Assembly: GCA_030827125.1 (NCBI GenBank)
Contig: JAURFD010000001.1
Location: 226,750 to 290,749, forward strand
From: Candidatus Nanopelagicales bacterium
GTDB taxonomy: Bacteria > Actinomycetota > Actinomycetes > S36-B12
Length of the DNA stretch: 64,000 nt
Reading direction: 5' to 3'
Shown here: positions 5,166-60,832 of the stretch, one piece after another
How positions within the stretch are numbered: position 1 is the first letter of the stretch
Layout of the letters: the number at the start of each line of letters is the position of its first letter
Position numbers and translations under genes: made by a program
The notes under the pieces: generated by a model
The model's database searches: none
Told to the model about the DNA's origin: nothing
The model's input: the letters and a program-made list of their open reading frames with translations, nothing else

Positions 5166-5244
5166 GGGTACCTCCTGGGGTAATGGGGCTAGTATTCCGC
5201 ACATCCGGGCATCGGGAGAGTTGGGGATAGGTCAAGATGTCAAC

Positions 5245-12285: not shown

Positions 12286-12305
12286 AGTGTTCCTTTCTAG
12301 TGGGT

Positions 12306-14796: not shown

Positions 14797-14822
14797 CTCA
14801 TGTCCTCCTTGAGTTCAAGCGC

Positions 14823-47877: not shown

Positions 47878-49466
47878 CGTGTGCTCCACAACACCGAGTC
47901 ATGCTGACGGGGCAGCGTCGGGAGTCCCGCGATCTGCTCGATCAGCAGATCGAGGATGGCATCGGGATCGTCGAGGTCGACCTGGCGCGCGATGTAGGGC
48001 GTGGTGACCGCCATGTTGAGCAGGGTGCGATCGCGGAGGACATCGTCGGGGAGAGGCGTGACGACGATTCCCTCCTCGTGCAGAAGGTTCATCGATCGGT
48101 CGGACAGGGGAGTCCGCACGACGAGTTCCCGCGGTCGCCACGACTGCAGGAGGATCTGATCGACATCGGGATCAGCACCGGCGATCAAGGCCACATCCCA
48201 CACGGCGCGCGGACGTGACTCGACGTCGAGGAGTTCCGCCAGGGTGGTCAACTGCACGGGCGCGGAGGCTCCGACCATGAGCGCACGCAGCACCGCCCGT
48301 CGCTGCCCGTCCGACATCGGTCGAGCTGCCTGTTCGAGCGCATCGGGGACGTTGGATGTCCCCTCGGTGAAGACGACGGCGCCGCGCGCTGCGTCCTGAC
48401 CGGCCAGCAGCGTGCGCAGGTCCGCATCGTGACCGGCGAGGACACGGCGCCCCGAGGCCAGCAGGCCGAGGCTGGTCGACGTCGCCCCCAGGAGGTGGTC
48501 GGGGGTCCACATCGGGTCCGCCAAGCCGAACGACGCCTTCGAGATCGCCTCGCGCAAGGCCACCGAGCGTTGGAGGCGAGGGTCGGGGGAGCACTCATCG
48601 CGTCCTGACCGATCAGCCTCGATCGCCGCGCGTAGTTCGCGTTCGAGAGGCGTGCCCGCGCGGCTCTCGCGGGGAACGAAGATGGAGGCGGAATGCGGGA
48701 CCTCCCCGAACTGCCAGGCGGCCGGGTCGATGCCCGGATGCCAGGGGTTGTCGCGGACCGAGCCCGGACCATCGACGACGAGATCGCACCGCTCCGCGAG
48801 TTCGGAGAGGAAGACGGTGCGGGACGGGGGCGTGGACCGAAGGAGGACCACGGGGCGCCCCTGCGCATGGGCCGCGTCGACCAACGCGGCGGCCGCGCGA
48901 AGTCGATCGACGGCTGCGGGGTCGCCGAGGTGCTCCCAGGATTCCCCCGGCAAGGCGGAAGCGGTGTCGATGACGACGATGTCGGCATCGACGGCTTCGA
49001 TCAGTGCGGGGCCTTCGTGCGGAAGGGCATTGCTCACCGCCGCATAGGGCGCCCACGCGAGTGCGGTGCGGTGTGAGAGGGCGCCAGCGATGGCCAGGGA
49101 TCCCTGCGCGGCCGCGGCTACCGACGTGCGCGGGATCAGTAGTCGCGGGGCGTCAAGATCGAGGACATCGTCGCGACGACCTCGCGTCGAAGGCGTGGTG
49201 GTCGGAGCCGTACGTCGCGATCGGCGAAGCCGCCAGATGCGCCATAGATCGCGGGGAAGGGTGAGGAGTCGTCGTGGGCTCTTGGCCGCATTCACCAAGA
49301 GGTTGCCGACGACGAACGACGCACTGCGCTGTGCACGTTCGAGGGCGCGCTCCGCACGATCGGCACGGGCTTCGGCGCGCCGCAGGTCGTGTTGGAGGCG
49401 GGCGACCTGGTTGGTAGGGCCGGGCTCGGGGGGCGCCTGCAGTTCGTCGGCCGGACCCTCGGTCAT
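47874..49466 (-). CDS. Hypothetical protein with N-terminal coiled-coil and basic amphipathic helix (function unknown)
   Basis: 530 aa. The N-terminus reads ARLQHDLRRAEARADRAERALERAQRSASFVVGNLLVNAAKSPRRLLTLPRDLWRIWRLRR. I recognise no catalytic motif. It is coupled by ATGA overlaps to both neighbouring genes. Confidence 0.6.
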   Translation of the reverse strand: MTEGPADELQAPPEPGPTNQVARLQHDLRRAEARADRAERALERAQRSASFVVGNLLVNAAKSPRRLLTLPRDLWRIWRLRRSRRTAPTTTPSTRGRRDDVLDLDAPRLLIPRTSVAAAAQGSLAIAGALSHRTALAWAPYAAVSNALPHEGPALIEAVDADIVVIDTASALPGESWEHLGDPAAVDRLRAAAALVDAAHAQGRPVVLLRSTPPSRTVFLSELAERCDLVVDGPGSVRDNPWHPGIDPAAWQFGEVPHSASIFVPRESRAGTPLERELRAAIEADRSGRDECSPDPRLQRSVALREAISKASFGLADPMWTPDHLLGATSTSLGLLASGRRVLAGHDADLRTLLAGQDAARGAVVFTEGTSNVPDALEQAARPMSDGQRRAVLRALMVGASAPVQLTTLAELLDVESRPRAVWDVALIAGADPDVDQILLQSWRPRELVVRTPLSDRSMNLLHEEGIVVTPLPDDVLRDRTLLNMAVTTPYIARQVDLDDPDAILDLLIEQIAGLPTLPRQHDSVLWSTR

Positions 49467-50548
49467 TCGCGGCCGCGTTCGTCAAGCCAGTCCAAGATGA
49501 CCTCGGCGATCCGATCACCGGCGTGCCCATCCCACAGGGGCGGGATCCGCTCGGCGTCGACGGGCTCGGCGAGGACCTCGTCAAGAAGGGCGACGAGCGT
49601 GGCGGGGGACGCGAGGCGATTGGTCCCATGGGTGATCGTGACCGGCCGCTCGGTGTTGGGGCGCAAGGTCAAGCAGGGCACCCGCAGCACGGTGGTTTCT
49701 TCCTGGACACCGCCGGAGTCGGTGATGACGGCACGGGCCCCGCTCACGAGGGACATGAAGTCCAGGTAGCCGAGGGGTTCCACGACGTGCACGCGCGGGT
49801 GATCCCCAATGCCGAGCGCCTCGAGGACGCGTCGCCCGCGCGGATGCAAGGGCAGAACGATCTCGGCCCGGGCAGCGGCTGAATGCACGAGGGCGACCAG
49901 TTCGGCCGCGGACTCAGGATCGTCGACGTTGCCCGGGCGGTGAAGGGTTGCGACGAGGTAGTCGTCGGGAAGTCCGAGGTCGGTACGAGCGCGCTGGGCG
50001 TCGAGGCGATCGAGGTTGGCGAGCAGGGTGTCGATCATGGGATTGCCGACCAGGTGGATCCGTTCCGCCGGCACCCCCTCGTGGGCGAGGTGAGCGATCG
50101 CGTCGGGACTGGTGCACAGCAGCAGGTCGGCGAGGCGATCGGTGACGATGCGATTGATCTCCTCGGGCATCGACATATCGAAGCTGCGCAATCCGGCCTC
50201 GACATGGGCCACGGGGATCTGCAGTTTGGCGGCGGCGATGCTCGCGGCCAAAGTGGAGTTCACATCGCCGTAGACGACGACCATGTCGGGTCGGGTGTCG
50301 AGCATCTCCACTTCGAGTCCGACAAGGATGGCGGCCGTCTGCTCGGCATGACTGCCCGAACCGACGCCCAGGTTGATGTCCGGCCGGGGGAGGTCGAGTT
50401 CGCGGAAGAAGATCTCCGACATGCGATCGTCGTAGTGCTGGCCGGTATGCACCAGGCGCTGACGGGCACCGCGGCGGGCGAGCGCGGCGATGACCGGGGC
50501 GGCCTTGGGGAAGTTGGGGCGGGCGCCGGTGACGTGCAGCAGGGTCAT
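49463..50548 (-). CDS. wecB: UDP-N-acetylglucosamine 2-epimerase (non-hydrolysing)
   Basis: MTLLHVTGARPNFPKAAPV, HTGQHYD, VYGDVNSTLA, HVEAGLRSFD and DSGGVQEE are classic WecB/MnaA motifs. Start ATG 50548; the track extension to 50758 is discounted. Confidence 0.9.
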   Translation of the reverse strand: MTLLHVTGARPNFPKAAPVIAALARRGARQRLVHTGQHYDDRMSEIFFRELDLPRPDINLGVGSGSHAEQTAAILVGLEVEMLDTRPDMVVVYGDVNSTLAASIAAAKLQIPVAHVEAGLRSFDMSMPEEINRIVTDRLADLLLCTSPDAIAHLAHEGVPAERIHLVGNPMIDTLLANLDRLDAQRARTDLGLPDDYLVATLHRPGNVDDPESAAELVALVHSAAARAEIVLPLHPRGRRVLEALGIGDHPRVHVVEPLGYLDFMSLVSGARAVITDSGGVQEETTVLRVPCLTLRPNTERPVTITHGTNRLASPATLVALLDEVLAEPVDAERIPPLWDGHAGDRIAEVILDWLDERGRE

Positions 50549-50627
50549 CTCGGCCTTCCCGTCATGTGGTCCTCGATTCAGCGCTCTACCTGCGCCGCCG
50601 TCTACTATCCCAGACCGGGAGGTGTCG

Positions 50628-52337
50628 ATGGCTACGCGCGGGCAAGACCGGCGTGCCCGCGAGGGTGCGCCTACCGACGCGGACTCACCGCGGCCGATCG
50701 GCTCCTCGCCGCGGCTGTGGGAGCGCGTCCTGCCCACGGTGCAGCACACACCCCTCATCGTGACCGGTGCGGTCCGTCGATTCCGCGAGGATCCGGCCCG
50801 GGGTCGGGCCGCCCTTGAGCGCGCCCTTCCTCGGCTGACCCCGGGTGCACCGGGCGGTGACGTGCTCGCCGCACTCGATCGGGCGATCGCGGCGGATCGC
50901 TACGACGAGGCGGTCACCTTGCTCGAACGCCTTGCTCCGGGTGACCCCGCGCGCCTTGGCGCGGAACTTGCGGTGGCCGGACTCGCCGGGCGACTGAACG
51001 ACGTCCTCGCCCATGAGCCGTCCGACCGACGCGGTCGGCGGGCGCTACGGCGTGCCGCGGCAGATCGGCAACGGCTCTCGGCCCCACTGCCCACCTGGTG
51101 CGCGGTATCGCCACGCACGCGTCCCACCACAGCAGAGGCGCCACGGATCCTCCACGTGGTGACCAATTCCCTGCCGCGCGTCCAGGCAGGCTCGACGATC
51201 CGCACTCAGCGCGTTGCCCGCGCGCAGCGCGACGCGGGGTGGGATGCCCAGGTCGTCACCCGTCCGGGATTCCCGGTCACTCGGGGTGAGGCCTGGGCCG
51301 CCGACGTGCAGTACGTCGACGGGATTCCCTATCACCGACTTCTGCCGCGGACGATGCCGTCCGAGGCTCGCGTGCCGGAGGTCTACGCCCGCGAGTTGGC
51401 CGCCCTCGTCGATGGGATCCGTCCCGATCTGCTCCACGGCGCCTCGGACCCGGTGAACGCCCGAGCCGCACTCGAGGTCGGGCGTCGGGCAGGTCTGCCG
51501 GTCGCCTACGAGGCGCGCAGCTTCTTCGAGGACACCTGGCTCAGCCGGCACGGAGGCGATCCCACGGCCGACACCTACCGCCTCCTCCGCGATCGCCACA
51601 CCGAGATCCTGCGGGCCGCTGATGTTGTGACGACGCTCGGTGTGGCCATGCGCGACGAGATCGTGCGTCGCGGGGTCCCCGCCGATCGCGTGATCATTGC
51701 CCCCAATGCCGTACCGGCCGCCTTCCTCGAGCCGCGAGCGGACACGGCGGAGCAGGCTCGCAGTCGCCTCGGCCTTGAAAACGCCGATCTGTGGGTTGGC
51801 AGCCTCGCGACTCTGAACGCCGACGAGGGCTTCGACACTCTCCTCGAGGCACTGGCTCTCCTGCGTGCCGAAGGGGTCGACGCGCGAGCGCTGCTCGTGG
51901 GGTCTGGCCCGACCTCGGCTGACCTCGCTCGACAGGCGGAGCAACGTGCAGTGCCCCTGACCATGCCGGGTCGGGTCCCGGTCGACGCGGTCCTGCCCTG
52001 GTACGACGCGCTGGACGTCTTCGCCTTCCCGCGACATGACACGGCGCTCAACCGCCTGGTTACCGGACTCAAGCCTGTGGAAGCCCAGGCCCGGGAGATC
52101 CCCGTGGTGGGCAGCGACCTGCCGGCCGTGCGGGAGGTGTCCGCTCCGGGGGCTGCTCTCGTGGCGTCCGGGGACGCGGCCGCGCTCGCGGAGGCCCTCA
52201 GCGGCCTGCTGGATCCCCGTGAACGAGGGGAGCGAGGCCGCGCCGCGCGCCAGTGGGTGAAGGAGACACGCACGTGGCCTCGCGTCATGGAGGCCTACCG
52301 GGCCGCGTACTCTTTCGGGGGTATCAGCGCCGCCTGA
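50628..52337 (+). CDS. GT4-family glycosyltransferase with ~190-aa N-terminal helical extension
   Basis: The GT-B core starts at RILHVVTNSLP. The C-terminal half has the donor-binding region (LVTGLKPVEAQAREIPVVGS). The preceding Ala/Arg/Leu-rich region has no recognisable motif. Confidence 0.7.
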   Translation: MATRGQDRRAREGAPTDADSPRPIGSSPRLWERVLPTVQHTPLIVTGAVRRFREDPARGRAALERALPRLTPGAPGGDVLAALDRAIAADRYDEAVTLLERLAPGDPARLGAELAVAGLAGRLNDVLAHEPSDRRGRRALRRAAADRQRLSAPLPTWCAVSPRTRPTTAEAPRILHVVTNSLPRVQAGSTIRTQRVARAQRDAGWDAQVVTRPGFPVTRGEAWAADVQYVDGIPYHRLLPRTMPSEARVPEVYARELAALVDGIRPDLLHGASDPVNARAALEVGRRAGLPVAYEARSFFEDTWLSRHGGDPTADTYRLLRDRHTEILRAADVVTTLGVAMRDEIVRRGVPADRVIIAPNAVPAAFLEPRADTAEQARSRLGLENADLWVGSLATLNADEGFDTLLEALALLRAEGVDARALLVGSGPTSADLARQAEQRAVPLTMPGRVPVDAVLPWYDALDVFAFPRHDTALNRLVTGLKPVEAQAREIPVVGSDLPAVREVSAPGAALVASGDAAALAEALSGLLDPRERGERGRAARQWVKETRTWPRVMEAYRAAYSFGGISAA

Positions 52338-52375
52338 GGGCGGAGCCGGCCATGGCGGCCGCGCGGCGACGAAGG

Positions 52376-53641
52376 ATGGATATGGCACGCGATCTCGTGG
52401 TCATCGGGCTCGGCTATGTCGGTCTGCCCCTCGCCCAGGAGGCCTGCCGATCGGGCCTCACGGTCACCGGACTCGACGTCTCCGAGCATGTTGTATCGGG
52501 TCTCAACGCTGGCCGATCGCACGTCGACGACCTGTCCGATGACGACATCAATGCCATGCTCAAGGCGGGATTCAGTGCGACGACCGACCCATCGGTCATC
52601 GGCGATGCGCACACCGTCGTCATCTGTGTACCCACCCCGCTGACGCCGGAGGGTGGCCCGGACCTCGGTGCCGTCCTCGGCGCAACGCAGTCGATCGCAG
52701 CGCACTTGCAGCGCGGGCAACTCATCGTCTTGGAGTCCACGACCTATCCGGGGACGACGGACGACGAGGTGCGCCCAGTGCTCGAGGCCGGCGGACTCGT
52801 TGCCGGCCGGGACTTCCATCTCGCCTTTAGCCCCGAGCGAATCGACCCGGGCAACCCCACCTATGGGATGCGCAACACACCCAAGGTCGTCGGCGGACAC
52901 ACGCCCGAGTGCACGGATGCGGCGTCAACGTTCTACGGGCGATTCGTCGATACCGTCGTGCCCGCGCGCGGGACCCGCGAGGCGGAGATGGCCAAACTCC
53001 TCGAAAATACCTACCGCCACATCAACATTGCACTCGTCAATGAGATGGCGCGCTTCTGCCACGAACTCGACATTGACCTGTGGGATGTCATCGCGGCGGC
53101 CAAGAGCAAGCCCTTCGGCTTTCAGGCGTTCTACCCCGGCCCCGGCGTTGGCGGTCACTGCATTCCAATCGATCCGAACTATCTGAGCTACCAGGTGCAG
53201 GCCAAACTCGGCTATCCCTTCCGCTTCGTCGAACTCGCGCAGGAGATCAACGCGGGAATGCCGACTTACGTCATCCGTCGGGTCCAGGACATCTTGAACG
53301 AGGACGGCAAGGCCCTGCGAGGAGCGCGCGTGCTACTCCTTGGCGTGACATACAAGCCCGACATCGCCGATCAGCGCGAATCACCGGCCAAGCCCATCGC
53401 CCAGCAATTGCGCGACAAGGGCGCCATCGTGGAGTACCACGATCCACACGTCACAGCCTGGCGTCTGAATGGCGAGACCCTCGCCCCGGTCCCCGACCTT
53501 GATGCCGCGGTGAGTGACGCGGATCTCACCATCCTGCTGCAAAACCACGATGCCTATGACATTCCCGCCCTCGTGGCGCGCTCGCGTCGTTTCTTCGACA
53601 CCCGAGGTGTCACCCGAGGTAACGAGGCGGTGCGACTCTGA
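52376..53641 (+). CDS. Nucleotide-sugar 6-dehydrogenase (UDP-GlcNAc/UDP-ManNAc dehydrogenase type)
   Basis: N-terminal VIGLGYVGLPLA Rossmann motif and the catalytic-Cys motif GVGGHCIPIDP. It belongs to the UDP-glucose/GDP-mannose dehydrogenase family. The substrate (GlcNAc, ManNAc or another sugar) is not resolvable by eye. Confidence 0.8.
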   Translation: MDMARDLVVIGLGYVGLPLAQEACRSGLTVTGLDVSEHVVSGLNAGRSHVDDLSDDDINAMLKAGFSATTDPSVIGDAHTVVICVPTPLTPEGGPDLGAVLGATQSIAAHLQRGQLIVLESTTYPGTTDDEVRPVLEAGGLVAGRDFHLAFSPERIDPGNPTYGMRNTPKVVGGHTPECTDAASTFYGRFVDTVVPARGTREAEMAKLLENTYRHINIALVNEMARFCHELDIDLWDVIAAAKSKPFGFQAFYPGPGVGGHCIPIDPNYLSYQVQAKLGYPFRFVELAQEINAGMPTYVIRRVQDILNEDGKALRGARVLLLGVTYKPDIADQRESPAKPIAQQLRDKGAIVEYHDPHVTAWRLNGETLAPVPDLDAAVSDADLTILLQNHDAYDIPALVARSRRFFDTRGVTRGNEAVRL

Positions 53642-53691
53642 TCGACGGCGGACAGCAGGTCGCAGCGAGCACCGTCACCGTCCCGGCCGAC

Positions 53692-54543
53692 GTGCTCGCC
53701 CGGGAGGCCGGGCTCACCCGAGTCAACAGCCGGCCGCCCTTCTTCGCCTACCTCCGCTCGCTGTGGCAGCGGCGTGCGTTCATCCGCGCGTTCGCCAAGG
53801 CAAGCGTCGATAAGCAGAACACCAAGAGTCGACTGGGCCAGTTCTGGCAGGTGATGGATCCGGTCCTCACCATGGCCCTGTACTGGTTCCTCTTCGGATT
53901 CCTGCTCGGTGGTCGCGGCAGCGTGGAGAATTACACCGGCTTCCTCGCGGCGGGTGTCTTCAGTTTTGCGATCATTCGCCAGTCCATTACGGCGGGTTCG
54001 CGTTCCATCTCGGGCAATGAGGGACTCGTCCGCTCCATTCACTTCCCGCGCGCGGTCTTGCCGATCGCCGTGGTGATGAAGCAACTGCGGGTCTTCTACT
54101 ACGCGATCCCCATCATGGTGGTGATTCTGCTCATTACGGGTGAGCCGATCACGTGGCGATGGTTGCTCGCGCCCGTCGGACTTCTGCTCATCGTGATGTT
54201 CTCGCTGGGTATGGCGATGATCATGGCCCGCATTGTGGCGACGCTGCAGGATGTGTCAGAGATCCTCGGATATCTGCTGCGCATCTGGGGATACATGTCC
54301 GGCGTGATGATCCCGATCGCCGACCGTCTCAGCCGGCTCGGCTTGCCGCCGTGGGCCGTGTTCATCATCGAAATCAATCCGGGGACGGTTTACCTCAACG
54401 TGATGCGTGATGCCCTCATGGCCTCCTATTACTCACCGGGCGGAGCACTGAACTGGATTCTGGCGGTCGCCTGGGCCGTGGTGATGCTGCCCTTCGGCAT
54501 GTGGTTCTTCTGGCGGGCGGAGGATCGCTATGGTCGAGGATGA
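53692..54543 (+). CDS. ABC-2-type polysaccharide/teichoic-acid exporter permease (Wzm/TagG-like)
   Basis: 283 aa with six predicted TM segments and the N-terminal amphipathic LRSLWQRRAFIRAF ... LGQFWQVMDPVL typical of ABC-2 permeases. GTG start is uncertain. Confidence 0.8.
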   Translation: MLAREAGLTRVNSRPPFFAYLRSLWQRRAFIRAFAKASVDKQNTKSRLGQFWQVMDPVLTMALYWFLFGFLLGGRGSVENYTGFLAAGVFSFAIIRQSITAGSRSISGNEGLVRSIHFPRAVLPIAVVMKQLRVFYYAIPIMVVILLITGEPITWRWLLAPVGLLLIVMFSLGMAMIMARIVATLQDVSEILGYLLRIWGYMSGVMIPIADRLSRLGLPPWAVFIIEINPGTVYLNVMRDALMASYYSPGGALNWILAVAWAVVMLPFGMWFFWRAEDRYGRG

Positions 54544-55498
54544 CGATGAGATGGAGATCGATCTCAGTGAGGAGGCCGACTTCTCCGATGTCGCGCCACC
54601 ACGCGAGAACGATCCGAACGCGCCAATCAAGGTGGTCGTCGACAACCTCCACATCGTCTATCGGGTGTGGACCGCTCCCGACCAGCCCCTAGAGGACACC
54701 GCCAGTCGCTGGCAGCGCATGCGCGCACGCCGGCCCGTGTCGACCAAGAGGGAGATCCATGCCCTGCGTGGCGTGAACTTCGTCGCGCGCCAGGGTGAGG
54801 CGGTGGGCGTCATCGGCAAGAATGGCGCGGGCAAATCCACGCTTATGCGCGCGATCGCCGGGCTCCTTCCGCCAAATCAGGGCGTGGTCTACGCCGACGG
54901 TCAACCGACGATGCTCGGCGTGAGTTCGGCGCTGATGCAGGCGCTGTCCGGCCTGCGCAATGTCGAGCTCGGCCTGCTTGCTTTGGGCCTCACTCCCAAG
55001 GAGGTCAAGGCGCGCATCCCGGACGTCATCGAATTCAGCGGAATTGGATCGGCGATCCATATGCCGATGAGCACCTATTCGTCAGGCATGTCCGCACGGT
55101 TGAAGTTCGCCATCGCCTCGGCGGTCACCCACGAAATCTTGCTCATCGATGAGGCGCTGTCGACCGGTGATGGTGAGTTCGTCAAGCGGTCGAGTCAGCG
55201 CATCCAGCAATTGCGCGATGACGCGGACACCATCTTCCTCGTAAGTCACTCGATGGGCGCCATCCGGTCCGCCTGCAATCGCGTGCTGTGGCTCGATGAG
55301 GGACAGATCCTGGCTGATGGACATCCGGACGACATCATCCCCGAGTACGAAGCGCGCTTCGGCCTGAAGTCGAAGAAGGCCATGCGTGAGCGGCGGAAGA
55401 AGCGCAAAGACGCCAACGAGCAGGCGATGGCCGAACTCGCCGCCGAAGGGTCGGACATGGTCAGCGCGACGGACCCGACGGTTCGCGGCCGGGACTAG
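54530..55498 (+). CDS. Polysaccharide/teichoic-acid exporter ATP-binding protein (Wzt/TagH-like)
   Basis: Walker A GKNGAGKSTL, signature YSSGMSARL, Walker B LLIDEA. It has an acidic N-terminal tail and a short charged C-terminal tail. Confidence 0.85.
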   Translation: MVEDDDEMEIDLSEEADFSDVAPPRENDPNAPIKVVVDNLHIVYRVWTAPDQPLEDTASRWQRMRARRPVSTKREIHALRGVNFVARQGEAVGVIGKNGAGKSTLMRAIAGLLPPNQGVVYADGQPTMLGVSSALMQALSGLRNVELGLLALGLTPKEVKARIPDVIEFSGIGSAIHMPMSTYSSGMSARLKFAIASAVTHEILLIDEALSTGDGEFVKRSSQRIQQLRDDADTIFLVSHSMGAIRSACNRVLWLDEGQILADGHPDDIIPEYEARFGLKSKKAMRERRKKRKDANEQAMAELAAEGSDMVSATDPTVRGRD

Positions 55499-55500
55499 CC

Positions 55501-56571
55501 GTGCGCGTCCTCGTCCTGTGTGCCGTGCACGATCCGCGAGATGCGCGCATCGCGGAACGCGAGATCGCGGCCCTTCTCGCGGCGGGGCATGAGGTGACCC
55601 AGGCCGGTCCGTTCAGCGCCTACGGCGCGGTGCCGCGTGATGGAGTGCGCGGCATCGATATTCCCCGAGCGACGGGCCGACGGCGCTTGGGCGCACTGCG
55701 TGAGTCGCGGCGAGTGCTGCGGCGTGAGGCTGCCTCCCACGACGTGGTGATCTTGCACAGTGCCGAAGCGGTAGCCGCCGCCACCGGGCTGCGCCATCCG
55801 TCCATCGTGTGGGATGTCCACGAGGACACCGCTGCGTCGCTCAGCCTGAAGCCTTGGTTGCCCAATCTGCTGCGTCGTCCCGTGGCCGGTCTCGCCCGTG
55901 CCGGGGAGTCGCTCGTCGAACGCCGTCGGCACCTTCTGCTCGCTGAGACGGCGTACGCACATCGGTTCGGCAGCGACCACCCGGTCGTGCCGAACAGTCC
56001 TGTGGTTCCGGCGCGAGTCCCGGCGAGCGGCCGCGGACGTGCGATCTACGTCGGGAGTGTGACAGTGGCGCGCGGCGGTGACGACCTCATCGCGCTGTCC
56101 CGACGACTGACCACTGTGAGCGTCGATGTGGTGGGCCCGGCGACCGGGGACCTGGTGGGACGGCTGCGCGCGGCCGAGGGTGAGTCGTTTCACTGGTGGG
56201 GATTCCGTCCCAACGCCGAAGCGCTCGCGCAGGTGGAGGGAGCGACCGTTGGCCTGTCACTCCTGCACGACGAGCCGAACTATCGGCACTCCATGCCCAC
56301 CAAGGTGTTGGAGTATCTCGCACGCGGTGTGCCCTTCATCTCGACTCCGCTTCCCCTGGCCGTTGACGTGGCCGAGCAGAGTGGCGCGGGGGTGATTGTG
56401 CCGTTCGGGGACCTCGATGCCGCGGCCGTCGCGGTGCAAGAGCTCAACGACGACGACGCGCGACGTCAGGCGATGGCCGAGGCTGGGAGGGCGTGGGTGC
56501 GTGCGAATGCCGACTGGGCCAACGACGGCCCGGCCTTCGTGGCGATCCTGGAGTCCTGGGCGCGGGGTTAG
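55501..56571 (+). CDS. Glycosyltransferase (GT-B fold, GT4-like)
   Basis: 356 aa. E-x7-E-like region SMPTKVLEYLARGVPFIS, and the N-terminal VRVLVLCAV typical of GT-B enzymes. Confidence 0.7.
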   Translation: MRVLVLCAVHDPRDARIAEREIAALLAAGHEVTQAGPFSAYGAVPRDGVRGIDIPRATGRRRLGALRESRRVLRREAASHDVVILHSAEAVAAATGLRHPSIVWDVHEDTAASLSLKPWLPNLLRRPVAGLARAGESLVERRRHLLLAETAYAHRFGSDHPVVPNSPVVPARVPASGRGRAIYVGSVTVARGGDDLIALSRRLTTVSVDVVGPATGDLVGRLRAAEGESFHWWGFRPNAEALAQVEGATVGLSLLHDEPNYRHSMPTKVLEYLARGVPFISTPLPLAVDVAEQSGAGVIVPFGDLDAAAVAVQELNDDDARRQAMAEAGRAWVRANADWANDGPAFVAILESWARG

Positions 56572-56640
56572 GCTGCGCCGGCTCGGCCGGCGTCGCACTA
56601 CCGAGCGCGCATTGCCATCGGGCGCCGGCCTGCCGGGCGC

Positions 56641-57729
56641 CTAGTCGCCAGACTCCTCCTCCGCCGCGGGCTTGCCGCCGCGGCGTTGGCTGAGCAGGTA
56701 GGCGGCGGCCCCGGCCGCTCGGGCCACGTCCTCCGGTGTGGGTACGCCGTCGGTGCCATCGGCCGCGACCGCGAGGTCCGCGAGATCTCCGAAGATTCGC
56801 ACTCCGGTGGCGCCGAGGTCGGCGATGTCCTCGGCGGCCCAGGTGCTCACGGTCGGAAGTAGCGCGGCCGGGAGTCCGAGTCGCTCGCCGCGATCCGGGC
56901 GGTCCGTCCAACCGCGACGGATGAGGGCGCGATGGGTCGACCGGACCTCTCGCCGGCCTTCGCCGGCCGCACGGGCCGCCAGGTTGAATCCGAAGATCGC
57001 GTAGGTCTCCGGCCCAGTCAGCGAGATGTTCGCTTTGTCCTCGGGTACCACCGGCGGGAGGGCTGGTAGGTCGTCGATGCCGCAGGCGGACGCGAATCGC
57101 TCCCACACCAGGGCCGCGCCGCCCCCGGCAGCGGGGACCGTGACCACGCGAACGGACTGCGCCCCTGCCGCCAGCCAGCGCCGCACGAGTTCGCCGTATC
57201 GATACGCCCGCCAGAATCCTCGGCGCAGCTCATCGCGATGACTCTGCGTTTCGCGTTCCTGCGCGCGCAGGCGCAGGTAGTCCGGATAGGCCTCGAAGTT
57301 GCCGTTGCGCATGTGCTGCTGCCAGGAACTCGGCAGGATCCGCGCGAGATCGCGCGCGGTGACCACGACGTCCATCGATACGCCGTCGAACGCATCGACG
57401 ACCGCAGCCGCTCCGTCATCGGTGAGCACCGACAGCGCTTCGGCGGACAGGATGACCTCGCCGGGGGCGCTGTGCACCACCGAGAGAAGTGCTTCGGCAT
57501 CGGAGCCGTCCTGCTCGGTCCAGGCATCCGGCTGAAGGCCGATGCCGCCGGATTGGCGCGCGAGATCGATGAGACCGGGCACCTGATTGTGGTCGACGCG
57601 GCCGCGGGTCTCGATGGGATAGATGGTGGGGGCAAGTTCACCGGCGAGGACCAGCGCCTGCAGGGCGCGTTGAACGTATGTGGTCGCGGTTTTGCGCGGT
57701 CCGATGTGCAGAACGACGCGCGATGCCAC
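56641..57729 (-). CDS. Sulfotransferase-like protein, uncharacterised family (paralog of 58762-59850)
   Basis: The N-terminal VVLHIGPRKTATTYVQ resembles the PAPS 5'-phosphosulfate-binding loop. VVVTARDLARILPSSWQQH resembles the 3'-phosphate-binding R-x-x-x-D/S region. It is clearly paralogous to the gene two positions upstream. Confidence 0.5.
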   Translation of the reverse strand: MASRVVLHIGPRKTATTYVQRALQALVLAGELAPTIYPIETRGRVDHNQVPGLIDLARQSGGIGLQPDAWTEQDGSDAEALLSVVHSAPGEVILSAEALSVLTDDGAAAVVDAFDGVSMDVVVTARDLARILPSSWQQHMRNGNFEAYPDYLRLRAQERETQSHRDELRRGFWRAYRYGELVRRWLAAGAQSVRVVTVPAAGGGAALVWERFASACGIDDLPALPPVVPEDKANISLTGPETYAIFGFNLAARAAGEGRREVRSTHRALIRRGWTDRPDRGERLGLPAALLPTVSTWAAEDIADLGATGVRIFGDLADLAVAADGTDGVPTPEDVARAAGAAAYLLSQRRGGKPAAEEESGD

Positions 57730-57738
57730 GGGCTGGCC

Positions 57739-58752
57739 TCAGCGACCGAAGCGACGCCGGACGGCCGCGACGAGATCCTCGGGTCGCTGGTCGTCGCGGC
57801 CGAGGCAGTAGGCCCCGGCCACACCGCACAGGGTTGCTGCCGCCCACAGCAGGGACGACGACCCTGGATTGCGGCGTGAGCTCACCGCCGCCGCCAGGGA
57901 CAACACTCCGGCGGCCGCGAGTGGGAGGAGGGCAGCCGGCAAATCGCCCGCTTCACCGGAGATGCGCGACGTGCGGGCACCGACACTCGACCCGCTCTGG
58001 GCGTGCTTGGGCTGGTACTCCTCGGGCTCGCGCAGGTCCAGGGTCTTGCGCGTGCCGACCGCGGTCTCTACGCCGTAGCCGTGCTCCACGAGCCAGCGGG
58101 CACCCTCGGCCTCGATCGCGACGAGCTCCTCATCGGTGAGGGTGTCGCGCCACGCGCCAGCGCGACCGTCGGTGATGTGGTTGGAGGTCACGCGCAGGTC
58201 GTCGTCGACACCGTGCGCCTTGGCCGCGACTGCGCGCTGCTCCTGAGCCGCGAGATCGACGTCCGCGACGATCTTGGCCACTCCGGCCTCATCGATATCC
58301 ACCTCGAGGAACGTCGCGAGATCGCGGACCAGCCCCGGAACGTCATCGCGGAAGTCTTCATATTTGCCGATCCAGACATCCTTGCGTGAGGTCCAGAACT
58401 CATCACCGCGCAATTCACGGCGCACGATGAGGCGACTGTTGCGCGCACCACGCTCGGGATCGCCCGGCTTTGCGCGGCCCTTGCGATAGAGCGAAGCGAC
58501 GACGTCGCGAGGGTCGCGATAGGTGTAGAGGTATTTCGCTCCCGCGTCCGGGAAGTCGCCGCGGTTGAGGGCCGGCCGGAAGTGCACCTTGGCCATGAGG
58601 AGATCAGCCGGGTCCGCCGCCGCCGCGGGATATTCCGACGTGGGGATGCCACGCGGGTTGCGCAGGCCAGGGCGACCGTCGACGAGTTGTCGGGCGATCT
58701 GCCACACGAGCGTGGAACCGGAGCGGTGCATGCCGCAGACGAGGAGAAGCAC
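57739..58752 (-). CDS. Sulfotransferase with C-terminal membrane anchor
   Basis: GMHRSGSTLVWQ (5'-PSB loop) and YTYRDPRDVVASLYRK (3'-PB motif). The C-terminal ~70 aa contains two hydrophobic segments (LPAALLPLAAAGVLSLAAAV, LLWAAATLCGVAGAYCLG). GTG start. Confidence 0.65.
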   Translation of the reverse strand: MLLLVCGMHRSGSTLVWQIARQLVDGRPGLRNPRGIPTSEYPAAAADPADLLMAKVHFRPALNRGDFPDAGAKYLYTYRDPRDVVASLYRKGRAKPGDPERGARNSRLIVRRELRGDEFWTSRKDVWIGKYEDFRDDVPGLVRDLATFLEVDIDEAGVAKIVADVDLAAQEQRAVAAKAHGVDDDLRVTSNHITDGRAGAWRDTLTDEELVAIEAEGARWLVEHGYGVETAVGTRKTLDLREPEEYQPKHAQSGSSVGARTSRISGEAGDLPAALLPLAAAGVLSLAAAVSSRRNPGSSSLLWAAATLCGVAGAYCLGRDDQRPEDLVAAVRRRFGR

Positions 58753-58761
58753 GTGCGCAGT

Positions 58762-59850
58762 CTAGGTGCTGCGGACCGGGAGTCCGGCGAGGTAGGCCAT
58801 CGCCGCGCCCGCTGCGCGGGCGATCTCGTCCGGATCGGGACCGTCACCGACGGGAGCGTCGGCGTCCACCAGGAGATCGGATCGCGGACCGACGAGGATG
58901 GCCGAGGTCGAATCGAGAACCTCGACATCGTCACGGGCCCACGCGCGGGCCCGTTCGGCCCAATGGCGGGGGAGTTGAACGGGTGTTCCGCGGTCAGGTC
59001 GGACCGCGAAGGCCTCGCGCACCAGCCGGCCGCGCAGGGCACGCAGGTCAGGTCCGTCGGCCTTCACCGAGTCCACCTGCCGGTTTAGGGCGGCGAGGAC
59101 CAGGACCTCAGGCTCGGTCAGACCGACATTGGCGGCGAGGTCGTCGATGGTCGGAGGAGTTTCTGGCAGCGCGGGGCCCACGTCAAGGGCGCGCCGGAAG
59201 CGATGCCACAACTCATCCGGGGCCGCGCCGCGGCGGGGGACGGTGACGACGCTTACGGTGCGCGCGAAGGGCGCCCAGCGTTCGACCAGGGTGCCGATGG
59301 CATAGGCCCGCCAGAAGGTCTGGTCCGGATCGTCGTTCCACCGAGCGGCGCGCTCCCGTGCGTTGCCCTCGCCACGACGGTCGGCCTGTTGCTGAAGGAA
59401 CGACGGGAAACTCGTCGACCTGCCATTGCGGATGTGCTGCTGCCACGAACTCGGCAGCACGCGTCCGAGATCACGGGCGGTGATGATGACGTGGGTGTTG
59501 GGGACCCCAAGACTCTCGACAAGACGTCGCGCTGCGTCGGCGTCGATGACGGAGAGCGCCTCGCCTGACACGATCGCCGTGCCATCCCACTGGCCGACCT
59601 TGCGCACGAGGCCGTTCCATGATCCTTCCTGCCCTCGCGCACGGGCCTCGGGCACCCACGGGAAAGAGGCGGTCCCGAGCAGTCCGTAGGCGGCCGCTTC
59701 ATGGTTGTAGACCTCGCGGCGCCCGTGCAGGCGCGTTGGGTAGAGCACGCCGTCGCGCTTGAGCGAGGACGAGAGGGCCGCGAGGACGCGCTGGAGGTAC
59801 GTCGTACCGGACTTCTGCGTACCGATGTGCAGCAGCAGTCGATCGGCCAC
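58762..59850 (-). CDS. Sulfotransferase-like protein, uncharacterised family (paralog of 56641-57729)
   Basis: LLLHIGTQKSGTTYLQ, IITARDLGRVLPSSWQQH, FWRAY and VSVVTVP are all shared with the paralog. Start GTG 59850 is preceded by GGGAG; the track ORF extends to 59904. Confidence 0.5.
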   Translation of the reverse strand: MADRLLLHIGTQKSGTTYLQRVLAALSSSLKRDGVLYPTRLHGRREVYNHEAAAYGLLGTASFPWVPEARARGQEGSWNGLVRKVGQWDGTAIVSGEALSVIDADAARRLVESLGVPNTHVIITARDLGRVLPSSWQQHIRNGRSTSFPSFLQQQADRRGEGNARERAARWNDDPDQTFWRAYAIGTLVERWAPFARTVSVVTVPRRGAAPDELWHRFRRALDVGPALPETPPTIDDLAANVGLTEPEVLVLAALNRQVDSVKADGPDLRALRGRLVREAFAVRPDRGTPVQLPRHWAERARAWARDDVEVLDSTSAILVGPRSDLLVDADAPVGDGPDPDEIARAAGAAMAYLAGLPVRST

Positions 59851-59932
59851 ACGCGCTCCCTGCGACTCGGGACGTCCTCGACGTCGGGAGCCCCATCCTG
59901 TCACGACCCGATCGCGTGGCAGGCTTGCCCGC

Positions 59933-60832
59933 GTGCGCGTGGCGACGGTCGGAAATTTCGATGGGGTGCATCGAGGGCATCAGGCCTTGATCGCCCGCGC
60001 CCGCGCGGCGCTGCCCGGGGATGCGGACGACCGCGTCATCGTCGTCACCTTCGATCCCCATCCGCAGGCCGTCCTGCGCCCGGACGCGGCACCCAAGTTG
60101 CTCGCCACACTGCCGCGCCGCATTGAGCTCCTGCGCGAGCACGGCGCGGACGATGTGGTCGTGGTCCCGTTCACCCGCGAGTTCGCGGCTAACGAACCCG
60201 AGGACTTCGCGCGCTTGCTGCGAGATGATCCGGGCATCGCCGCTGATCGTGTGGTTGTTGGCGAGAACTTCCGATTCGGCCGTCGTGCCAGCGGTGACGT
60301 GAGCGACCTCACCCGGCTCGGACAGGAGCTCGGTTTCACCGTGGATGCCGTACCCCTGATGGAGGCGGAGTCGGCCGACGGCGTTCCGTGGTCGTCCAGC
60401 TTCGTGCGCGAGCAGATTGACGCCGGGGACATGGGGGCCGCCGCCGCGGCCCTCGGCCATCCGCATCGCCTTGAGGGCCCCGTGCGTCACGGCGATGCCC
60501 GGGGTCGGGAGCTGGGCTACCCCACGGCCAACCTCGAGGTGGGCCCGCAATTCGCGGTGCCGCCCGATGGTGTCTACGCGGGCTGGCTGCTCGATGGCCC
60601 CGAGCGGTACCCGGCTGCTGTCTCCATTGGCACCAATCCCCAGTTCGCCGGGACCGAGCGGCGGGTGGAGGCCTATGTCCTCGATCGGGACGATCTCGAC
60701 CTCTACGACCACGACGTGGCGCTCGACCTGGTGTCCCGACTGCGGGGACAGGCCACCTTTGCGTCGGTGGACGACCTCATCGAGCAGATGGGTCGAGATG
60801 TCGCCATGGCACGGGGGGCCCTCGGGGGCTGA
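59933..60832 (+). CDS. ribF: Bifunctional riboflavin kinase / FMN adenylyltransferase
   Basis: VGNFDGVHRGHQ (FAD synthetase) and ELGYPTANL plus VEAYVLD (riboflavin kinase). GTG start at 59933 or 59939; the track ORF start at 59759 overlaps the divergent gene. Confidence 0.9.
   Translation: MRVATVGNFDGVHRGHQALIARARAALPGDADDRVIVVTFDPHPQAVLRPDAAPKLLATLPRRIELLREHGADDVVVVPFTREFAANEPEDFARLLRDDPGIAADRVVVGENFRFGRRASGDVSDLTRLGQELGFTVDAVPLMEAESADGVPWSSSFVREQIDAGDMGAAAAALGHPHRLEGPVRHGDARGRELGYPTANLEVGPQFAVPPDGVYAGWLLDGPERYPAAVSIGTNPQFAGTERRVEAYVLDRDDLDLYDHDVALDLVSRLRGQATFASVDDLIEQMGRDVAMARGALGG

What the first reader, a model, noticed from the sequence alone, without database searches (positions are those of the whole stretch)
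56641..59904. Operon of three sulfotransferase-like genes attached to the glycopolymer island suggests a sulfated cell-wall polymer
**Seen in the sequence.**
- Three co-oriented genes are separated by only 9-nt gaps.
- The middle gene has convincing PAPS-sulfotransferase motifs: GMHRSGST as the 5'-phosphosulfate loop and YRDPRDVVAS as the 3'-phosphate motif.
- The two flanking genes carry HIG(P/T)(R/Q)K(T/S)(A/G)TTY(V/L)Q and TARDLxRxLPSSWQQH in the equivalent positions.

**From established knowledge.**
- These motif classes define PAPS-dependent sulfotransferases.
- As far as I know, sulfated cell-envelope glycans are well documented in mycobacterial glycolipids and rhizobial Nod factors, but are rarely described for actinobacterial wall polysaccharides.

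**Inference.** Having three enzymes implies several sulfation positions or substrates on the polymer made next door, modified on the cytoplasmic face before ABC export.
Basis: partly seen in the sequence, partly recalled or inferred. Interest (0 to 1): 0.8.

Follow-up and report, generated by a model that had tools for sequence, protein, structure and literature searches.

The report
Sulfotransferase operon beside glycopolymer export cluster
Three tightly packed genes next to a surface-sugar-polymer export cluster in a freshwater actinobacterium encode one clear sulfate-adding enzyme and two relatives from an undescribed sulfotransferase-like family, which predicts a sulfated surface polymer, something hardly documented in this bacterial phylum.

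Summary
Three minus-strand genes, A (58762-59850), B (57739-58752) and C (56641-57729), are separated by exactly 9 nt, and every quoted motif is present.

B is a genuine Sulfotransfer_1 protein. It scores 53 bits against a cut-off of 22. It has the PSB loop, the catalytic His, the R-x7-S 3'-phosphate motif and GxxGxWR, plus a conserved C-terminal hydrophobic hairpin.

A and C are paralogues (34% identity) from a large family absent from Pfam and NCBIfam.
- For sulfotransferase: the only Pfam hits are weak, sub-threshold Sulfotransfer_3/_1 matches. The loop is KSGTT rather than Walker A. The R-x7-S spacing is identical to B's.
- Inconclusive: AlphaFold models match P-loop kinases as well as sulfotransferases.
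- Best functional evidence: in one related lineage, a single A-family gene with no B sits between cysD-cysNC (PAPS synthesis) and the orthologous polymer cluster.

The island (wecB, ManNAc-type dehydrogenase, glycosyltransferases, TagGH-like ABC exporter, A-B(-C)) lies between truB and ribF. It is syntenic in about 35 freshwater Nanopelagicales/Actinomycetota MAGs; C is optional.

PAPS genes are not in the window. They are common in the order but not shown for this genome.

Verdict: probably cytoplasmic sulfation of an ABC-exported acidic glycopolymer.

The parts
58762..59850 (-). Gene A: 362-aa sulfotransferase-like protein of an unannotated family. The longest ORF runs to 59904; the probable start is the GTG at 59850.
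   Evidence: ORF. Start from the homologue alignment and the AGGGAG RBS. Sub-threshold Sulfotransfer_3 hit, 18.7 bits against a cut-off of 27. AlphaFold pLDDT 93.
59791..59829 (-). A: HIGTQKSGTTYLQ, a putative 5'-phosphosulfate-binding loop. It contains invariant His, Gly, Lys and Gln.
   Evidence: It lies in a strand-loop-helix in the model. It is not a Walker A motif.
59557..59571 (-). A: VSGEA, with family-invariant Ser-x-Glu at the end of a beta-strand. The Glu is a candidate catalytic base.
   Evidence: S113 and E115 are invariant. Coordinates.
59434..59481 (-). A: TARDLGRVLPSSWQQH, a putative 3'-phosphate-binding motif (R144 ... S152, spacing R-x7-S).
   Evidence: The strand ends at R and a helix follows.
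58753..58761 (-). 9-nt spacer between A and B.
57739..58752 (-). Gene B: 337-aa Sulfotransfer_1-family PAPS sulfotransferase with a C-terminal membrane anchor.
   Evidence: Pfam PF00685, 53.2 bits against a cut-off of 22. PDB sequence hits to retinol dehydratase, SULT4A1, StaL and Teg12. Family alignment.
58711..58734 (-). B: GMHRSGST, the 5'-PSB loop (Arg variant).
58579..58593 (-). B: AKVHF. The invariant His57 aligns with the catalytic His of the KTH(L)P motif.
   Evidence: Alignment to retinol dehydratase. Invariant. Coordinates.
58492..58521 (-). B: YRDPRDVVAS, the 3'-PB motif (R79 ... S87).
58144..58170 (-). B: DGRAGAWRD, the C-terminal GxxGxW(K/R) 3'-phosphate motif.
   Evidence: Aligned to RKGKAGCWRD of retinol dehydratase. 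Invariant.
57799..57951 (-). B: two hydrophobic segments (about residues 268-318). They are a putative membrane hairpin anchor.
   Evidence: Kyte-Doolittle scan. The feature is conserved in all 20 homologues examined, although the sequence varies.
57730..57738 (-). 9-nt spacer between B and C.
56641..57729 (-). Gene C: 362-aa paralogue of A (34% identity). It is optional in related genomes.
   Evidence: BLASTP E = 1e-53. C-type subfamily found in 21 loci, the window included, plus one outlier (L026). Absent from about 13 syntenic loci.
57670..57708 (-). C: HIGPRKTATTYVQ, a putative PSB loop with Ala in place of the usual Gly.
57313..57360 (-). C: TARDLARILPSSWQQH, a putative 3'-PB motif.
59851..59932 (.). 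82-nt divergent intergenic region between A and ribF (GTG at 59933). It is the presumed promoter region of the operon.
   Evidence: No sigma-70 consensus match was found.
55501..56571 (+). GT1-family glycosyltransferase, convergent with C.
   Evidence: Pfam. Syntenic in related loci.
53692..55498 (+). ABC-2 permease (53692-54543) and TagH-like ATPase (54530-55498), forming the polymer exporter.
   Evidence: ABC2_membrane and ABC_tran Pfam annotations on the corresponding genes of the near-identical contig L001. Best NCBIfam hits are Wzm/RfbD and TagH, below the equivalog cut-offs.
52253..53641 (+). Nucleotide-sugar dehydrogenase, closest to UDP-ManNAc dehydrogenase.
   Evidence: TIGR03026, 429 bits, above cut-off. 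PRK11064, 251 bits, below cut-off. Pfam.
50490..52337 (+). GT4 glycosyltransferase. The true start is probably further downstream.
49463..50758 (-). wecB-type non-hydrolysing UDP-GlcNAc 2-epimerase.
   Evidence: TIGR00236, 300 bits against a cut-off of 210. Pfam.
47874..49466 (-). 530-aa protein with no family assignment. It is conserved in the island.
   Evidence: No Pfam or NCBIfam hit. Syntenic in related loci.
45670..47889 (-). 739-aa double GT4-type glycosyltransferase. It is the far end of the island, next to truB.

Best explanation
The three genes form one operon that encodes the sulfation module of a glycopolymer pathway.

**The polymer (inferred).** It probably contains ManNAc or ManNAcA. 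It is built on the cytoplasmic face by the neighbouring glycosyltransferases from UDP-GlcNAc-derived precursors supplied by the WecB epimerase and an NDP-sugar dehydrogenase.

**Sulfation (part shown, part inferred).**
- B is a canonical PAPS-dependent Sulfotransfer_1 enzyme. A C-terminal hydrophobic hairpin tethers it to the membrane.
- A and C are soluble paralogues from an unannotated sulfotransferase-like family. They retain a KSGTT-type phosphosulfate loop and an R-x7-S 3'-phosphate motif.
- Together they would transfer sulfate from PAPS onto the lipid-linked polymer.

**Export (inferred).** The TagGH-like ABC transporter then exports the polymer.

**What is shown.**
- Gene structure and motifs.
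- B's family membership.
- The paralogy of A and C.
- Synteny of the island.
- Linkage of an A-family gene to cysD-cysNC in a related lineage.

**What is inferred.**
- Catalytic activity of A and C.
- The acceptor.
- The timing of sulfation before export.
- The final location of the polymer.
For: **B.**
- PF00685 at 53.2 bits against a cut-off of 22.
- Residue-level alignment of His57, R79-S87 and GxxGxWR to solved SULT-fold enzymes.
- All of these residues are invariant in 20 homologues.
- The hydrophobic hairpin is conserved.

**A and C.**
- They are paralogues.
- The only Pfam families hit at E <= 1 are Sulfotransfer_3 and Sulfotransfer_1, co-linear over residues 27-191. This recurs in 14 of 26 relatives at E <= 0.1 and 6 of 57 at E <= 0.01.
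- H26, G28, K31, Q38, S113, E115 and R144 are invariant across a 57-member, roughly 30%-identity alignment.
- The motifs lie in strand-loop-helix elements of a high-confidence model.
- Lys sits at the sulfotransferase position (xKSGTT), not at the Walker A position GxxxxGK[ST].

**Context.**
- In L074/L098/L099 an A-family gene lies between cysD plus cysNC (APS_kinase, 213 bits) and orthologues of the same GT1, ABC, dehydrogenase, GT4 and wecB cluster. No B-type gene is present there.
- A-family and B-family genes stay adjacent to this cluster in several gene orders: A-B-C, A-B, A-A'-B and B-A.
- The ribF-adjacent island is syntenic in about 35 MAGs.
- In Actinomadura and Spirillospora, the A-family gene abuts a Wzx/Wzy polysaccharide cluster.
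- CysD plus CysN-CysC are common in Nanopelagicales MAGs.
Against: - A scores below Pfam's threshold, and C has no hit at all.
- No NCBIfam model matches A, B or C.
- Profile searches of the PDB find nothing.
- hhalign of the A family against the B family is not significant (probability 1-2%).
- Foldseek's best hits for the A N-domain are adenylate, polynucleotide and gluconate kinases and GPN-loop GTPases (E = 2e-4 to 1e-3). Sulfotransferases come in at about 8e-3 with similar TM-scores of 0.35-0.45.
- The cysDNC linkage rests on a single lineage.
- A third paralogue type sits between glnA and glnE, with no polysaccharide genes nearby.
- No APS kinase or ATP sulfurylase gene is in the 64-kb window. 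Their presence in this genome is unverified.
- No chemical evidence for ester sulfate exists for any polymer of this lineage.
Confidence: 0.6

Rival explanations
1. Only B is a sulfotransferase. A and C are P-loop-derived kinases or NTPases, for example glycan or lipid-carrier kinases, or assembly ATPases. They would use ATP or GTP rather than PAPS.
For: Foldseek ranks adenylate kinase, polynucleotide kinase, gluconate kinase and GPN-loop GTPases above sulfotransferases. hhalign against the B family is not significant.
Against: - There is no Walker A motif. The Lys lies three residues upstream of the canonical GK[ST] position, exactly as in sulfotransferase PSB loops.
- No kinase or NTPase Pfam model is hit even at E <= 1, whereas two sulfotransferase models are.
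- The R-x7-S motif has sulfotransferase spacing.
- The A-family gene sits next to cysD-cysNC with no other sulfotransferase in the cluster.
- Sulfotransferases and nucleotide kinases share a fold (established knowledge), so the fold hits do not discriminate.
Confidence: 0.12
2. A and C are catalytically inactive sulfotransferase-like partners. They would be PAPS/PAP-binding or acceptor-binding scaffolds that regulate or target B.
For: A and B are always adjacent and appear translationally coupled (9-nt gaps). A/C lack the canonical catalytic His of B. C has Ala in place of the loop Gly.
Against: PAPS-binding residues and an invariant Ser-x-Glu and His are conserved over a family of at least 1,400 clusters at E <= 1e-30, which is typical of enzymes. 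In L074 the A-family gene occurs with cysDNC and without any B homologue. Many family members occur alone.
Confidence: 0.1
3. All three are sulfotransferases, but the acceptor is not the neighbouring polymer. It could be a lipid, a metabolite or a protein, and adjacency to the island would be incidental.
For: A third paralogue type lies between glnA and glnE, away from glycan genes. B's closest solved relatives sulfate small molecules or glycopeptides.
Against: Adjacency to the same GT/ABC cluster is kept through four different gene orders and in a different chromosomal location in L074. B is membrane-anchored next to a TagGH-type exporter.
Confidence: 0.13

Closest known systems
Cytosolic-type PAPS sulfotransferases (Pfam Sulfotransfer_1), e.g. 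StaL and Teg12 glycopeptide sulfotransferases and Stf0 of mycobacteria
   Same: B has the PSB loop, catalytic His, 3'-PB R-x7-S and GxxGxW(K/R) motifs, and passes the Pfam threshold.
   Different: - B carries a C-terminal hydrophobic hairpin.
- It sits in an ABC-exporter glycopolymer cluster.
- Its PSB loop has Arg instead of Lys.
- It is only distantly related to solved enzymes (best E = 1e-5).
- Its acceptor is unknown.
Bacterial polysaccharide sulfation systems: Sinorhizobium/Mesorhizobium LpsS and KpsS, and the Synechocystis synechan xss cluster (PMC8205485, PMC11625862)
   Same: PAPS-dependent sulfotransferase genes are embedded in a surface-polysaccharide biosynthesis and export locus. 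More than one sulfotransferase is present per cluster.
   Different: - Those systems are in Gram-negative bacteria and cyanobacteria, and the synechan system uses Wzx/Wzy.
- Here the host is a freshwater actinobacterium with a TagGH-like ABC exporter.
- Two of the three enzymes here belong to a family not covered by Pfam.
Actinoplanes missouriensis wps-1 cluster (PMC13390465, 2026)
   Same: It is an actinomycete polysaccharide cluster with two predicted sulfotransferases, and it suggests sulfated polysaccharide in Actinomycetota. It is also unverified chemically.
   Different: wps-1 is Wzx/Wzy-dependent. Its sulfotransferases are recognised InterPro types (Gal/GlcNAc/GalNAc-type and heparan-sulfate-type). 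No relation to the A/C family was tested.
Teichuronic acid / wall teichoic acid ABC-exporter pathways (TagGH, Tua; ManNAcA-containing teichuronic acid of Micrococcus luteus)
   Same: The island has a TagH-like ATPase, an ABC-2 permease, a WecB epimerase, a ManNAc-type dehydrogenase and GT4/GT1 enzymes.
   Different: NCBIfam scores are below the equivalog cut-offs. No TagO/WecA primer enzyme or LCP ligase is in the island. Sulfation is not known for these polymers.
P-loop nucleotide kinases and GPN-loop GTPases
   Same: They are the best Foldseek matches of the A N-domain and share the three-layer alpha/beta fold.
   Different: A/C lack Walker A GxxxxGK[ST]. TM-scores are only 0.3-0.5. No sequence-profile match was found.

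Membership tests
Sulfotransfer_1 (PF00685), gene B | Score above Pfam's gathering threshold | tested here: met
   53.2 bits against a cut-off of 22, covering profile positions 5-239 of 255. Homologues are pre-annotated PF00685.
Sulfotransfer_1 (PF00685), gene B | 5'-phosphosulfate-binding loop (K/R)-x-G-(S/T)-T after strand 1 | tested here: met
   LLLVCGMH-R10-S-G-S-T14. Nearly invariant in 20 homologues.
Sulfotransfer_1 (PF00685), gene B | Catalytic His at the end of the KTH-type strand | tested here: met
   His57 (AKVHF) aligns with the His of KTHLP in retinol dehydratase. Invariant.
Sulfotransfer_1 (PF00685), gene B | 3'-phosphate-binding R-x7-S and C-terminal GxxGxW(K/R) | tested here: met
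   R79...S87 and G196-RA-G199-A-W201-R202, aligned and invariant.
Sulfotransfer_1 (PF00685), gene B | PAPS-dependent sulfotransfer activity | not testable with these tools
   Needs an enzyme assay.
PAPS sulfotransferase superfamily, genes A and C | Significant match to a curated sulfotransferase profile | tested here: not met
   A: Sulfotransfer_3 at 18.7 bits (cut-off 27) and Sulfotransfer_1 at 13.4 bits (cut-off 22). C: no hit. No NCBIfam hit. The best family member reaches E = 3.9e-4.
PAPS sulfotransferase superfamily, genes A and C | PSB loop with Lys/Arg at the x-K-x-G-T-T position in a strand-loop-helix | tested here: met
   QKSGTTY in A and RKTATTY in C. K31 is invariant in 57 diverse members. 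It lies in the loop between strand 22-28 and helix 34-43.
PAPS sulfotransferase superfamily, genes A and C | 3'-PB motif: Arg at the strand end, Ser eight residues later in the following helix | tested here: met
   R144...S152. Strand 137-143, helix 146-159. R144 is invariant. The spacing is the same as in B.
PAPS sulfotransferase superfamily, genes A and C | Structural similarity closest to sulfotransferases | tested here: inconclusive
   CurM ST, TPST2 and NST1 appear at E about 8e-3 with TMq 0.34-0.45. Adenylate kinase, PNK and GPN GTPases score E = 2e-4 to 1e-3 with TMq 0.3-0.46.
PAPS sulfotransferase superfamily, genes A and C | Identifiable catalytic base (His or Glu) | tested here: inconclusive
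   E115 (in S-x-E at a strand end) and H26 are invariant. Their equivalence to known catalytic bases could not be tested without superposition.
PAPS sulfotransferase superfamily, genes A and C | Genomic coupling to PAPS synthesis | tested here: met
   Met in one related lineage only: cysNC-cysD | A-like | polymer cluster in L074, L098 and L099. Not met in the window itself.
Walker-A P-loop NTPases/kinases, genes A and C | GxxxxGK[ST] Walker A motif | tested here: not met
   The sequence is G28-T-Q-K-S-G33-T34-T35, so Thr occupies the Lys position. No NTPase or kinase Pfam hit at E <= 1.
TagGH-type ABC-exported wall glycopolymer pathway (the neighbouring island) | ABC-2 permease plus TagH/Wzt-type ATPase with glycosyltransferases and nucleotide-sugar enzymes | tested here: inconclusive
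   Pfam domains are present. The best NCBIfam hits are TagH (195 bits, cut-off 538) and Wzm (73 bits, cut-off 380), below the equivalog cut-offs. wecB passes. No priming enzyme or LCP ligase is in the island.
Complete sulfation pathway in this genome | ATP sulfurylase plus APS kinase (PAPS supply) | not testable with these tools
   None found in the 64-kb window. CysD plus CysN-CysC are common in Nanopelagicales MAGs. The rest of this genome is not available.

The most novel reading that the evidence does not exclude
The A/C proteins would define a large, previously unrecognised clade of carbohydrate sulfotransferases. There are at least 1,400 50%-identity clusters at E <= 1e-30. The clade would have its own catalytic set, an invariant His in strand 1 plus Ser-x-Glu.

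Abundant freshwater Actinomycetota would then coat themselves with a sulfated, uronic-acid-type, phosphorus-free polyanionic polymer. Sulfate would take the place of teichoic-acid phosphate in phosphorus-poor lakes.
Probability: 0.3. Interest if true: 0.8.

Novelty: new variant of a known kind. Interest (0 to 1): 0.6.

Why it matters
**Sulfated polysaccharides in bacteria are rarely documented.**
- A 2026 paper (PMC13390465) states they are reported essentially only in cyanobacteria. It raises them for actinomycetes only as an unverified genetic possibility.
- A 2024 review (PMC11625862) notes that Pfam profiles miss many bacterial polysaccharide sulfotransferases.

**What this locus offers.**
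- A conserved, compact, testable case in an abundant freshwater actinobacterial lineage.
- One canonical sulfotransferase plus members of a large unannotated sulfotransferase-like family.
- A direct link to an ABC-exported acidic glycopolymer and, in one lineage, to PAPS synthesis genes.

**If confirmed, it would:**
- add a new enzyme family to the carbohydrate-sulfation toolbox;
- reveal a sulfated envelope polymer in Actinomycetota;
- bear on surface charge, phage and grazer interactions, and phosphorus economy in lake bacterioplankton.

Tried and rejected
**Searches that found nothing or were not significant.**
- Sequence searches of A and C against the PDB, as single sequences and with 26- and 57-member profiles, found nothing meaningful.
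- hhalign of the A-family profiles against the B-family profile was not significant. The only aligned piece was the 3'-PB motif.
- NCBIfam gave no hit for A, B or C.
- The simple promoter and terminator scan of 56400-60100 found nothing.
- A literature search for Nanopelagicales plus sulfotransferase returned no papers.

**Fold searches.**
- Foldseek with the full-length A model gave only weak hits (E > 4e-3), mixing GTPases, ATP synthase subunits and sulfotransferases.
- Repeating it with an N-domain-only model improved the E-values but favoured kinases and GTPases slightly over sulfotransferases. Fold alone cannot decide.

**Search for sulfate activation genes.**
- The whole window was scanned with Pfam. 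None were found, only a TauE/SafE-type transporter.
- I tried to link CysNC to a MAG that also carries the operon. The contigs retrieved belong to other assemblies, so the link is at order level only.
- The metagenome scan for L074-like loci returned only the same organism for the cysDNC arrangement, so that linkage remains a single lineage.

**A technical failure.** The search for related loci with the most diverse alignment failed for lack of a sufficiently conserved stretch. It was rerun with the 26-member alignment A1.

**Rejected.** The 380-aa reading of gene A is the longest ORF, not the real start.

Full report
**Observation**

The region holds three co-oriented minus-strand ORFs: 58762-59904, 57739-58752 and 56641-57729. 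I call them A, B and C in transcription order. The stop of A and the GTG start of B are 9 nt apart, and so are the stop of B and the GTG start of C.

One coordinate needs correcting. The 380-aa reading of A is the longest ORF, not the likely gene.
- All homologues start at M-A-(D/S)-R.
- An AGGGAG ribosome-binding site precedes the GTG at 59850.
- Gene callers give 362 aa on a near-identical public contig.

This leaves an 82-nt divergent intergenic region before ribF, whose start is the GTG at 59933.

The longer reading of B (337 aa, GTG at 58752) is supported. The LLLVCG strand upstream of the internal Met is conserved at the protein level.

**Gene B**

B is a bona fide member of Pfam Sulfotransfer_1. 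It scores 53.2 bits against a gathering score of 22, over almost the whole profile.

Its best solved relatives are SULT-fold enzymes: retinol dehydratase, SULT4A1, and StaL and Teg12, with E = 1e-5 to 0.03. The residue-level alignment places:
- His57 (AKVHF) on the catalytic His of KTHLP;
- R79...S87 (YRDPRDVVAS) on the 3'-phosphate motif;
- GRAGAWR on the C-terminal RKGxxGxW(K/R) motif.

These residues and the RSGST phosphosulfate loop are invariant or nearly so in 20 homologues of 58-88% identity.

After the catalytic domain (about residues 1-235) come a variable linker and two hydrophobic segments (about residues 268-318). Their sequences vary, but the feature is kept in all 20 homologues. 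I read this as a membrane hairpin that holds a cytoplasmic enzyme at the membrane. A and C have no such segment.

**Genes A and C**

A and C are paralogues: 34% identity over 345 residues, E = 1e-53.

The family is large.
- A 26-member profile finds 11,779 50%-identity clusters at E <= 1e-3 and 1,446 at E <= 1e-30 among 1.84 billion representatives. Most are full-length matches.
- Some of the best-scoring hits are tandem two-domain proteins of 750-850 aa.
- None of the 120 best relatives has a precomputed Pfam domain, and nearly all are called hypothetical.
- NCBIfam has no model.

Evidence that the family is sulfotransferase-like:
1. At E <= 1, the only Pfam families hit by A are Sulfotransfer_3 (E = 0.0022, 18.7 bits, below the cut-off of 27, co-linear over residues 27-191) and Sulfotransfer_1. 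No kinase or NTPase model is hit. The same weak Sulfotransfer_3 signal recurs in 14 of 26 relatives at E <= 0.1. Among 57 more diverse relatives, 6 hit Sulfotransfer_3 at E <= 0.01, best E = 3.9e-4.
2. In a 57-member alignment of about 30% mean identity, the invariant residues are H26, G28, K31, Q38, S113, E115, R144 and G339.
3. The AlphaFold models have mean pLDDT 93-94. HIGTQKSGTT falls in a strand-loop-helix (strand 22-28, helix 34-43). TARDLGRVLPSS falls in a second strand-loop-helix (strand 137-143, helix 146-159). From established knowledge of SULT structures, this is the geometry of the 5'-PSB and 3'-PB elements.
4. The loop reads x-K-S-G-T-T, as in PKSGTTW of cytosolic sulfotransferases. 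It does not read GxxxxGK[ST]; a Thr occupies the Walker lysine position.
5. The Arg-to-Ser spacing (R144 to S152) is the same R-x7-S as in B (R79 to S87).

Evidence that falls short:
- C has no Pfam hit at all.
- PDB sequence and profile searches are empty.
- hhalign against the B family is not significant. It aligns only the 3'-PB region.
- Foldseek cannot separate sulfotransferases from nucleotide kinases. For the N-domain model the best hits are GPN-loop GTPases and polynucleotide, gluconate and adenylate kinases (E = 2e-4 to 1e-3, TM 0.3-0.5). CurM ST, TPST2 and NST1 follow at E about 8e-3 with similar TM-scores. The full-length model gives the same mixture at weaker E-values.

Sulfotransferases and nucleotide kinases are known to share this fold, so the result is inconclusive rather than contrary.

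**Genomic context**

The window shows nusA, infB and truB (44468-45667), followed by a roughly 14-kb island, and then ribF, rpsO and pnp. The island contains, in order:
- a 739-aa double GT4 protein;
- a 530-aa protein with no family assignment;
- a wecB-type UDP-GlcNAc 2-epimerase, above the TIGR00236 cut-off;
- a GT4 glycosyltransferase;
- an NDP-sugar dehydrogenase closest to UDP-ManNAc dehydrogenase;
- an ABC-2 permease;
- a TagH-like ATPase;
- a GT1 glycosyltransferase;
- C, B and A.

The enzyme set suggests a ManNAc- or ManNAcA-containing acidic polymer exported by a TagGH/Wzm-Wzt-type transporter. The NCBIfam scores for the transporter and the dehydrogenase are below the equivalog cut-offs. 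No priming enzyme or LCP ligase is present, so 'cell-wall polymer' remains an inference.

A scan of GTDB species representatives found 452 loci that encode a relative of A. Among the best 80:
- About 35 are the same ribF-adjacent island, in MAGs labelled Candidatus Nanopelagicales or Actinomycetota. They come mostly from lakes and rivers.
- The order is ribF | A B (C) | GT1, ABC ATPase, permease, dehydrogenase, GT4 | wecB, the 530-aa gene, GT739.
- A and B are always present where the contig allows.
- C is present in about 22 loci. It is truly absent in about 13, where B is followed directly by GT1.

Other gene orders next to the same cluster occur in metagenome contigs: A-A'-B, and B-A.

The same MAGs carry a third paralogue type between glnA and glnE. 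In Actinomadura and Spirillospora the family member sits beside a Wzx/Wzy polysaccharide cluster.

**Link to PAPS**

The most informative locus is L074. The same organism was recovered twice more as L098 and L099.
- An A-family gene (40% identical to A) is flanked on one side by divergent cysD and a cysN-cysC fusion. The fusion scores 213 bits on APS_kinase, and cysD 176 bits on PAPS_reduct.
- On the other side it is flanked by UDP-glucose dehydrogenase, GT2, and orthologues of the window's GT1 (45%), ABC ATPase (56%), permease (46%), ManNAc-type dehydrogenase (64%), GT4 and wecB (62%).
- No B homologue is in that cluster.

So the A-family protein there is the only candidate consumer of the PAPS made next door. 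This is the best functional evidence that the family uses PAPS and acts on this polymer. It comes from one lineage only.

The 64-kb window itself has no sulfate-activation gene. CysD plus CysN-CysC are widespread in Nanopelagicales MAGs, where they sit between infC-rpmI-rplT and pheST rather than with sulfite-reduction genes. I could not show that they occur in this genome.

**Mechanism proposed**

1. The polymer is assembled on a lipid carrier at the cytoplasmic face.
2. Membrane-anchored B, and soluble A and C, transfer sulfate from PAPS to distinct hydroxyl or amino positions.
3. The ABC transporter exports the sulfated polymer.

Sulfation must precede export, because PAPS is cytoplasmic (established knowledge).

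Confidence by step:
- B's activity class: well supported, about 0.9.
- A/C as active sulfotransferases: probable, about 0.65.
- The polymer as acceptor: probable, about 0.6-0.7.
- Wall attachment: unknown.

**Comparison with known systems and novelty**

B is a new member of a known family.

Placing sulfotransferases inside a polysaccharide locus is known from rhizobial LpsS and KpsS and from the cyanobacterial synechan cluster (PMC11625862, PMC8205485). For Actinomycetota, a 2026 paper on the Actinoplanes wps-1 cluster presents sulfated polysaccharide only as an unverified possibility. That paper states that bacterial sulfated polysaccharides are otherwise essentially cyanobacterial (PMC13390465).

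The new elements here are:
- the ABC-exporter context in a freshwater actinobacterial lineage;
- the conserved A-B(-C) module;
- the A/C family, which curated libraries do not recognise.

I rate this a new variant of a known kind, of moderate-to-good interest. The main caveats are that A/C membership is not proven and that no chemistry exists.

Noticed in passing
window 45670-59850: The whole glycopolymer-plus-sulfotransferase island (about 14 kb) sits between truB (44468-45667) and ribF (59933-60832), inside the conserved nusA-infB-truB-ribF-rpsO-pnp housekeeping stretch. It is syntenic in about 35 related MAGs, so it is not a strain-variable island.
   Followed up: partly
window 47874-49466 (-): This 530-aa protein has no Pfam or NCBIfam match and no hydrophobic segment. 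It is conserved in the island between wecB and the 739-aa double glycosyltransferase in related loci. Its function is unknown.
   Followed up: partly
L004 10001-11173; L044-L053, L055, L058, L060, L061, L070, L078, L079, L083, L085: The same MAGs that carry the ribF-adjacent operon hold a third paralogue type of the A/C family (about 42% identity). In the two loci whose neighbours were examined (L004, L005) it stands alone between glnA and glnE, away from glycan genes. Its acceptor may be something else.
   Followed up: partly
P0247, P0259, P0264, P0272 and others; L007 2621-5050: Tandem two-domain members of the A/C family (750-850 aa) exist. L007 holds a cluster of four family copies in a row, and one of them carries a faint Sulfotransfer_3 Pfam mark.
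   Followed up: no
L088-L097 (about 5087-7854): In Nanopelagicales MAGs, cysD and a cysN-cysC fusion are inserted between infC-rpmI-rplT-(methylase) and pheS-pheT, with no sulfite or APS reductase genes nearby. This would fit a dedicated PAPS supply rather than assimilation.
   Followed up: partly
window 37669-38439 (+): A TauE/SafE-family (sulfite/sulfonate exporter-type) membrane protein gene lies upstream of nusA. It is the only sulfur-related gene found in the window outside the finding.
   Followed up: no
window 11059-15839 (-): This cluster holds an NMT1/THI5-like binding protein, two ABC permeases, an ABC ATPase and a luciferase-like monooxygenase. The layout resembles ssuABCD-type sulfonate uptake and desulfonation. 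Amidohydrolase, nitrilase-type and aldehyde dehydrogenase genes follow it. The substrate was not determined.
   Followed up: no
L003 8697-11113; L006 8666-11107: In Spirillospora and Actinomadura, the A-family gene is conserved next to a YkuD-type L,D-transpeptidase gene and a Wzx/Wzy polysaccharide cluster (Bac_transf, Wzy_C, MurJ-type flippase, deacetylase, GT4, Wzz).
   Followed up: partly
window 58582-59088 (+) and other antisense ORFs: Long antisense ORFs with high third-position GC overlap genes A and B. They are the usual high-GC artefacts and have no homology support.
   Followed up: partly
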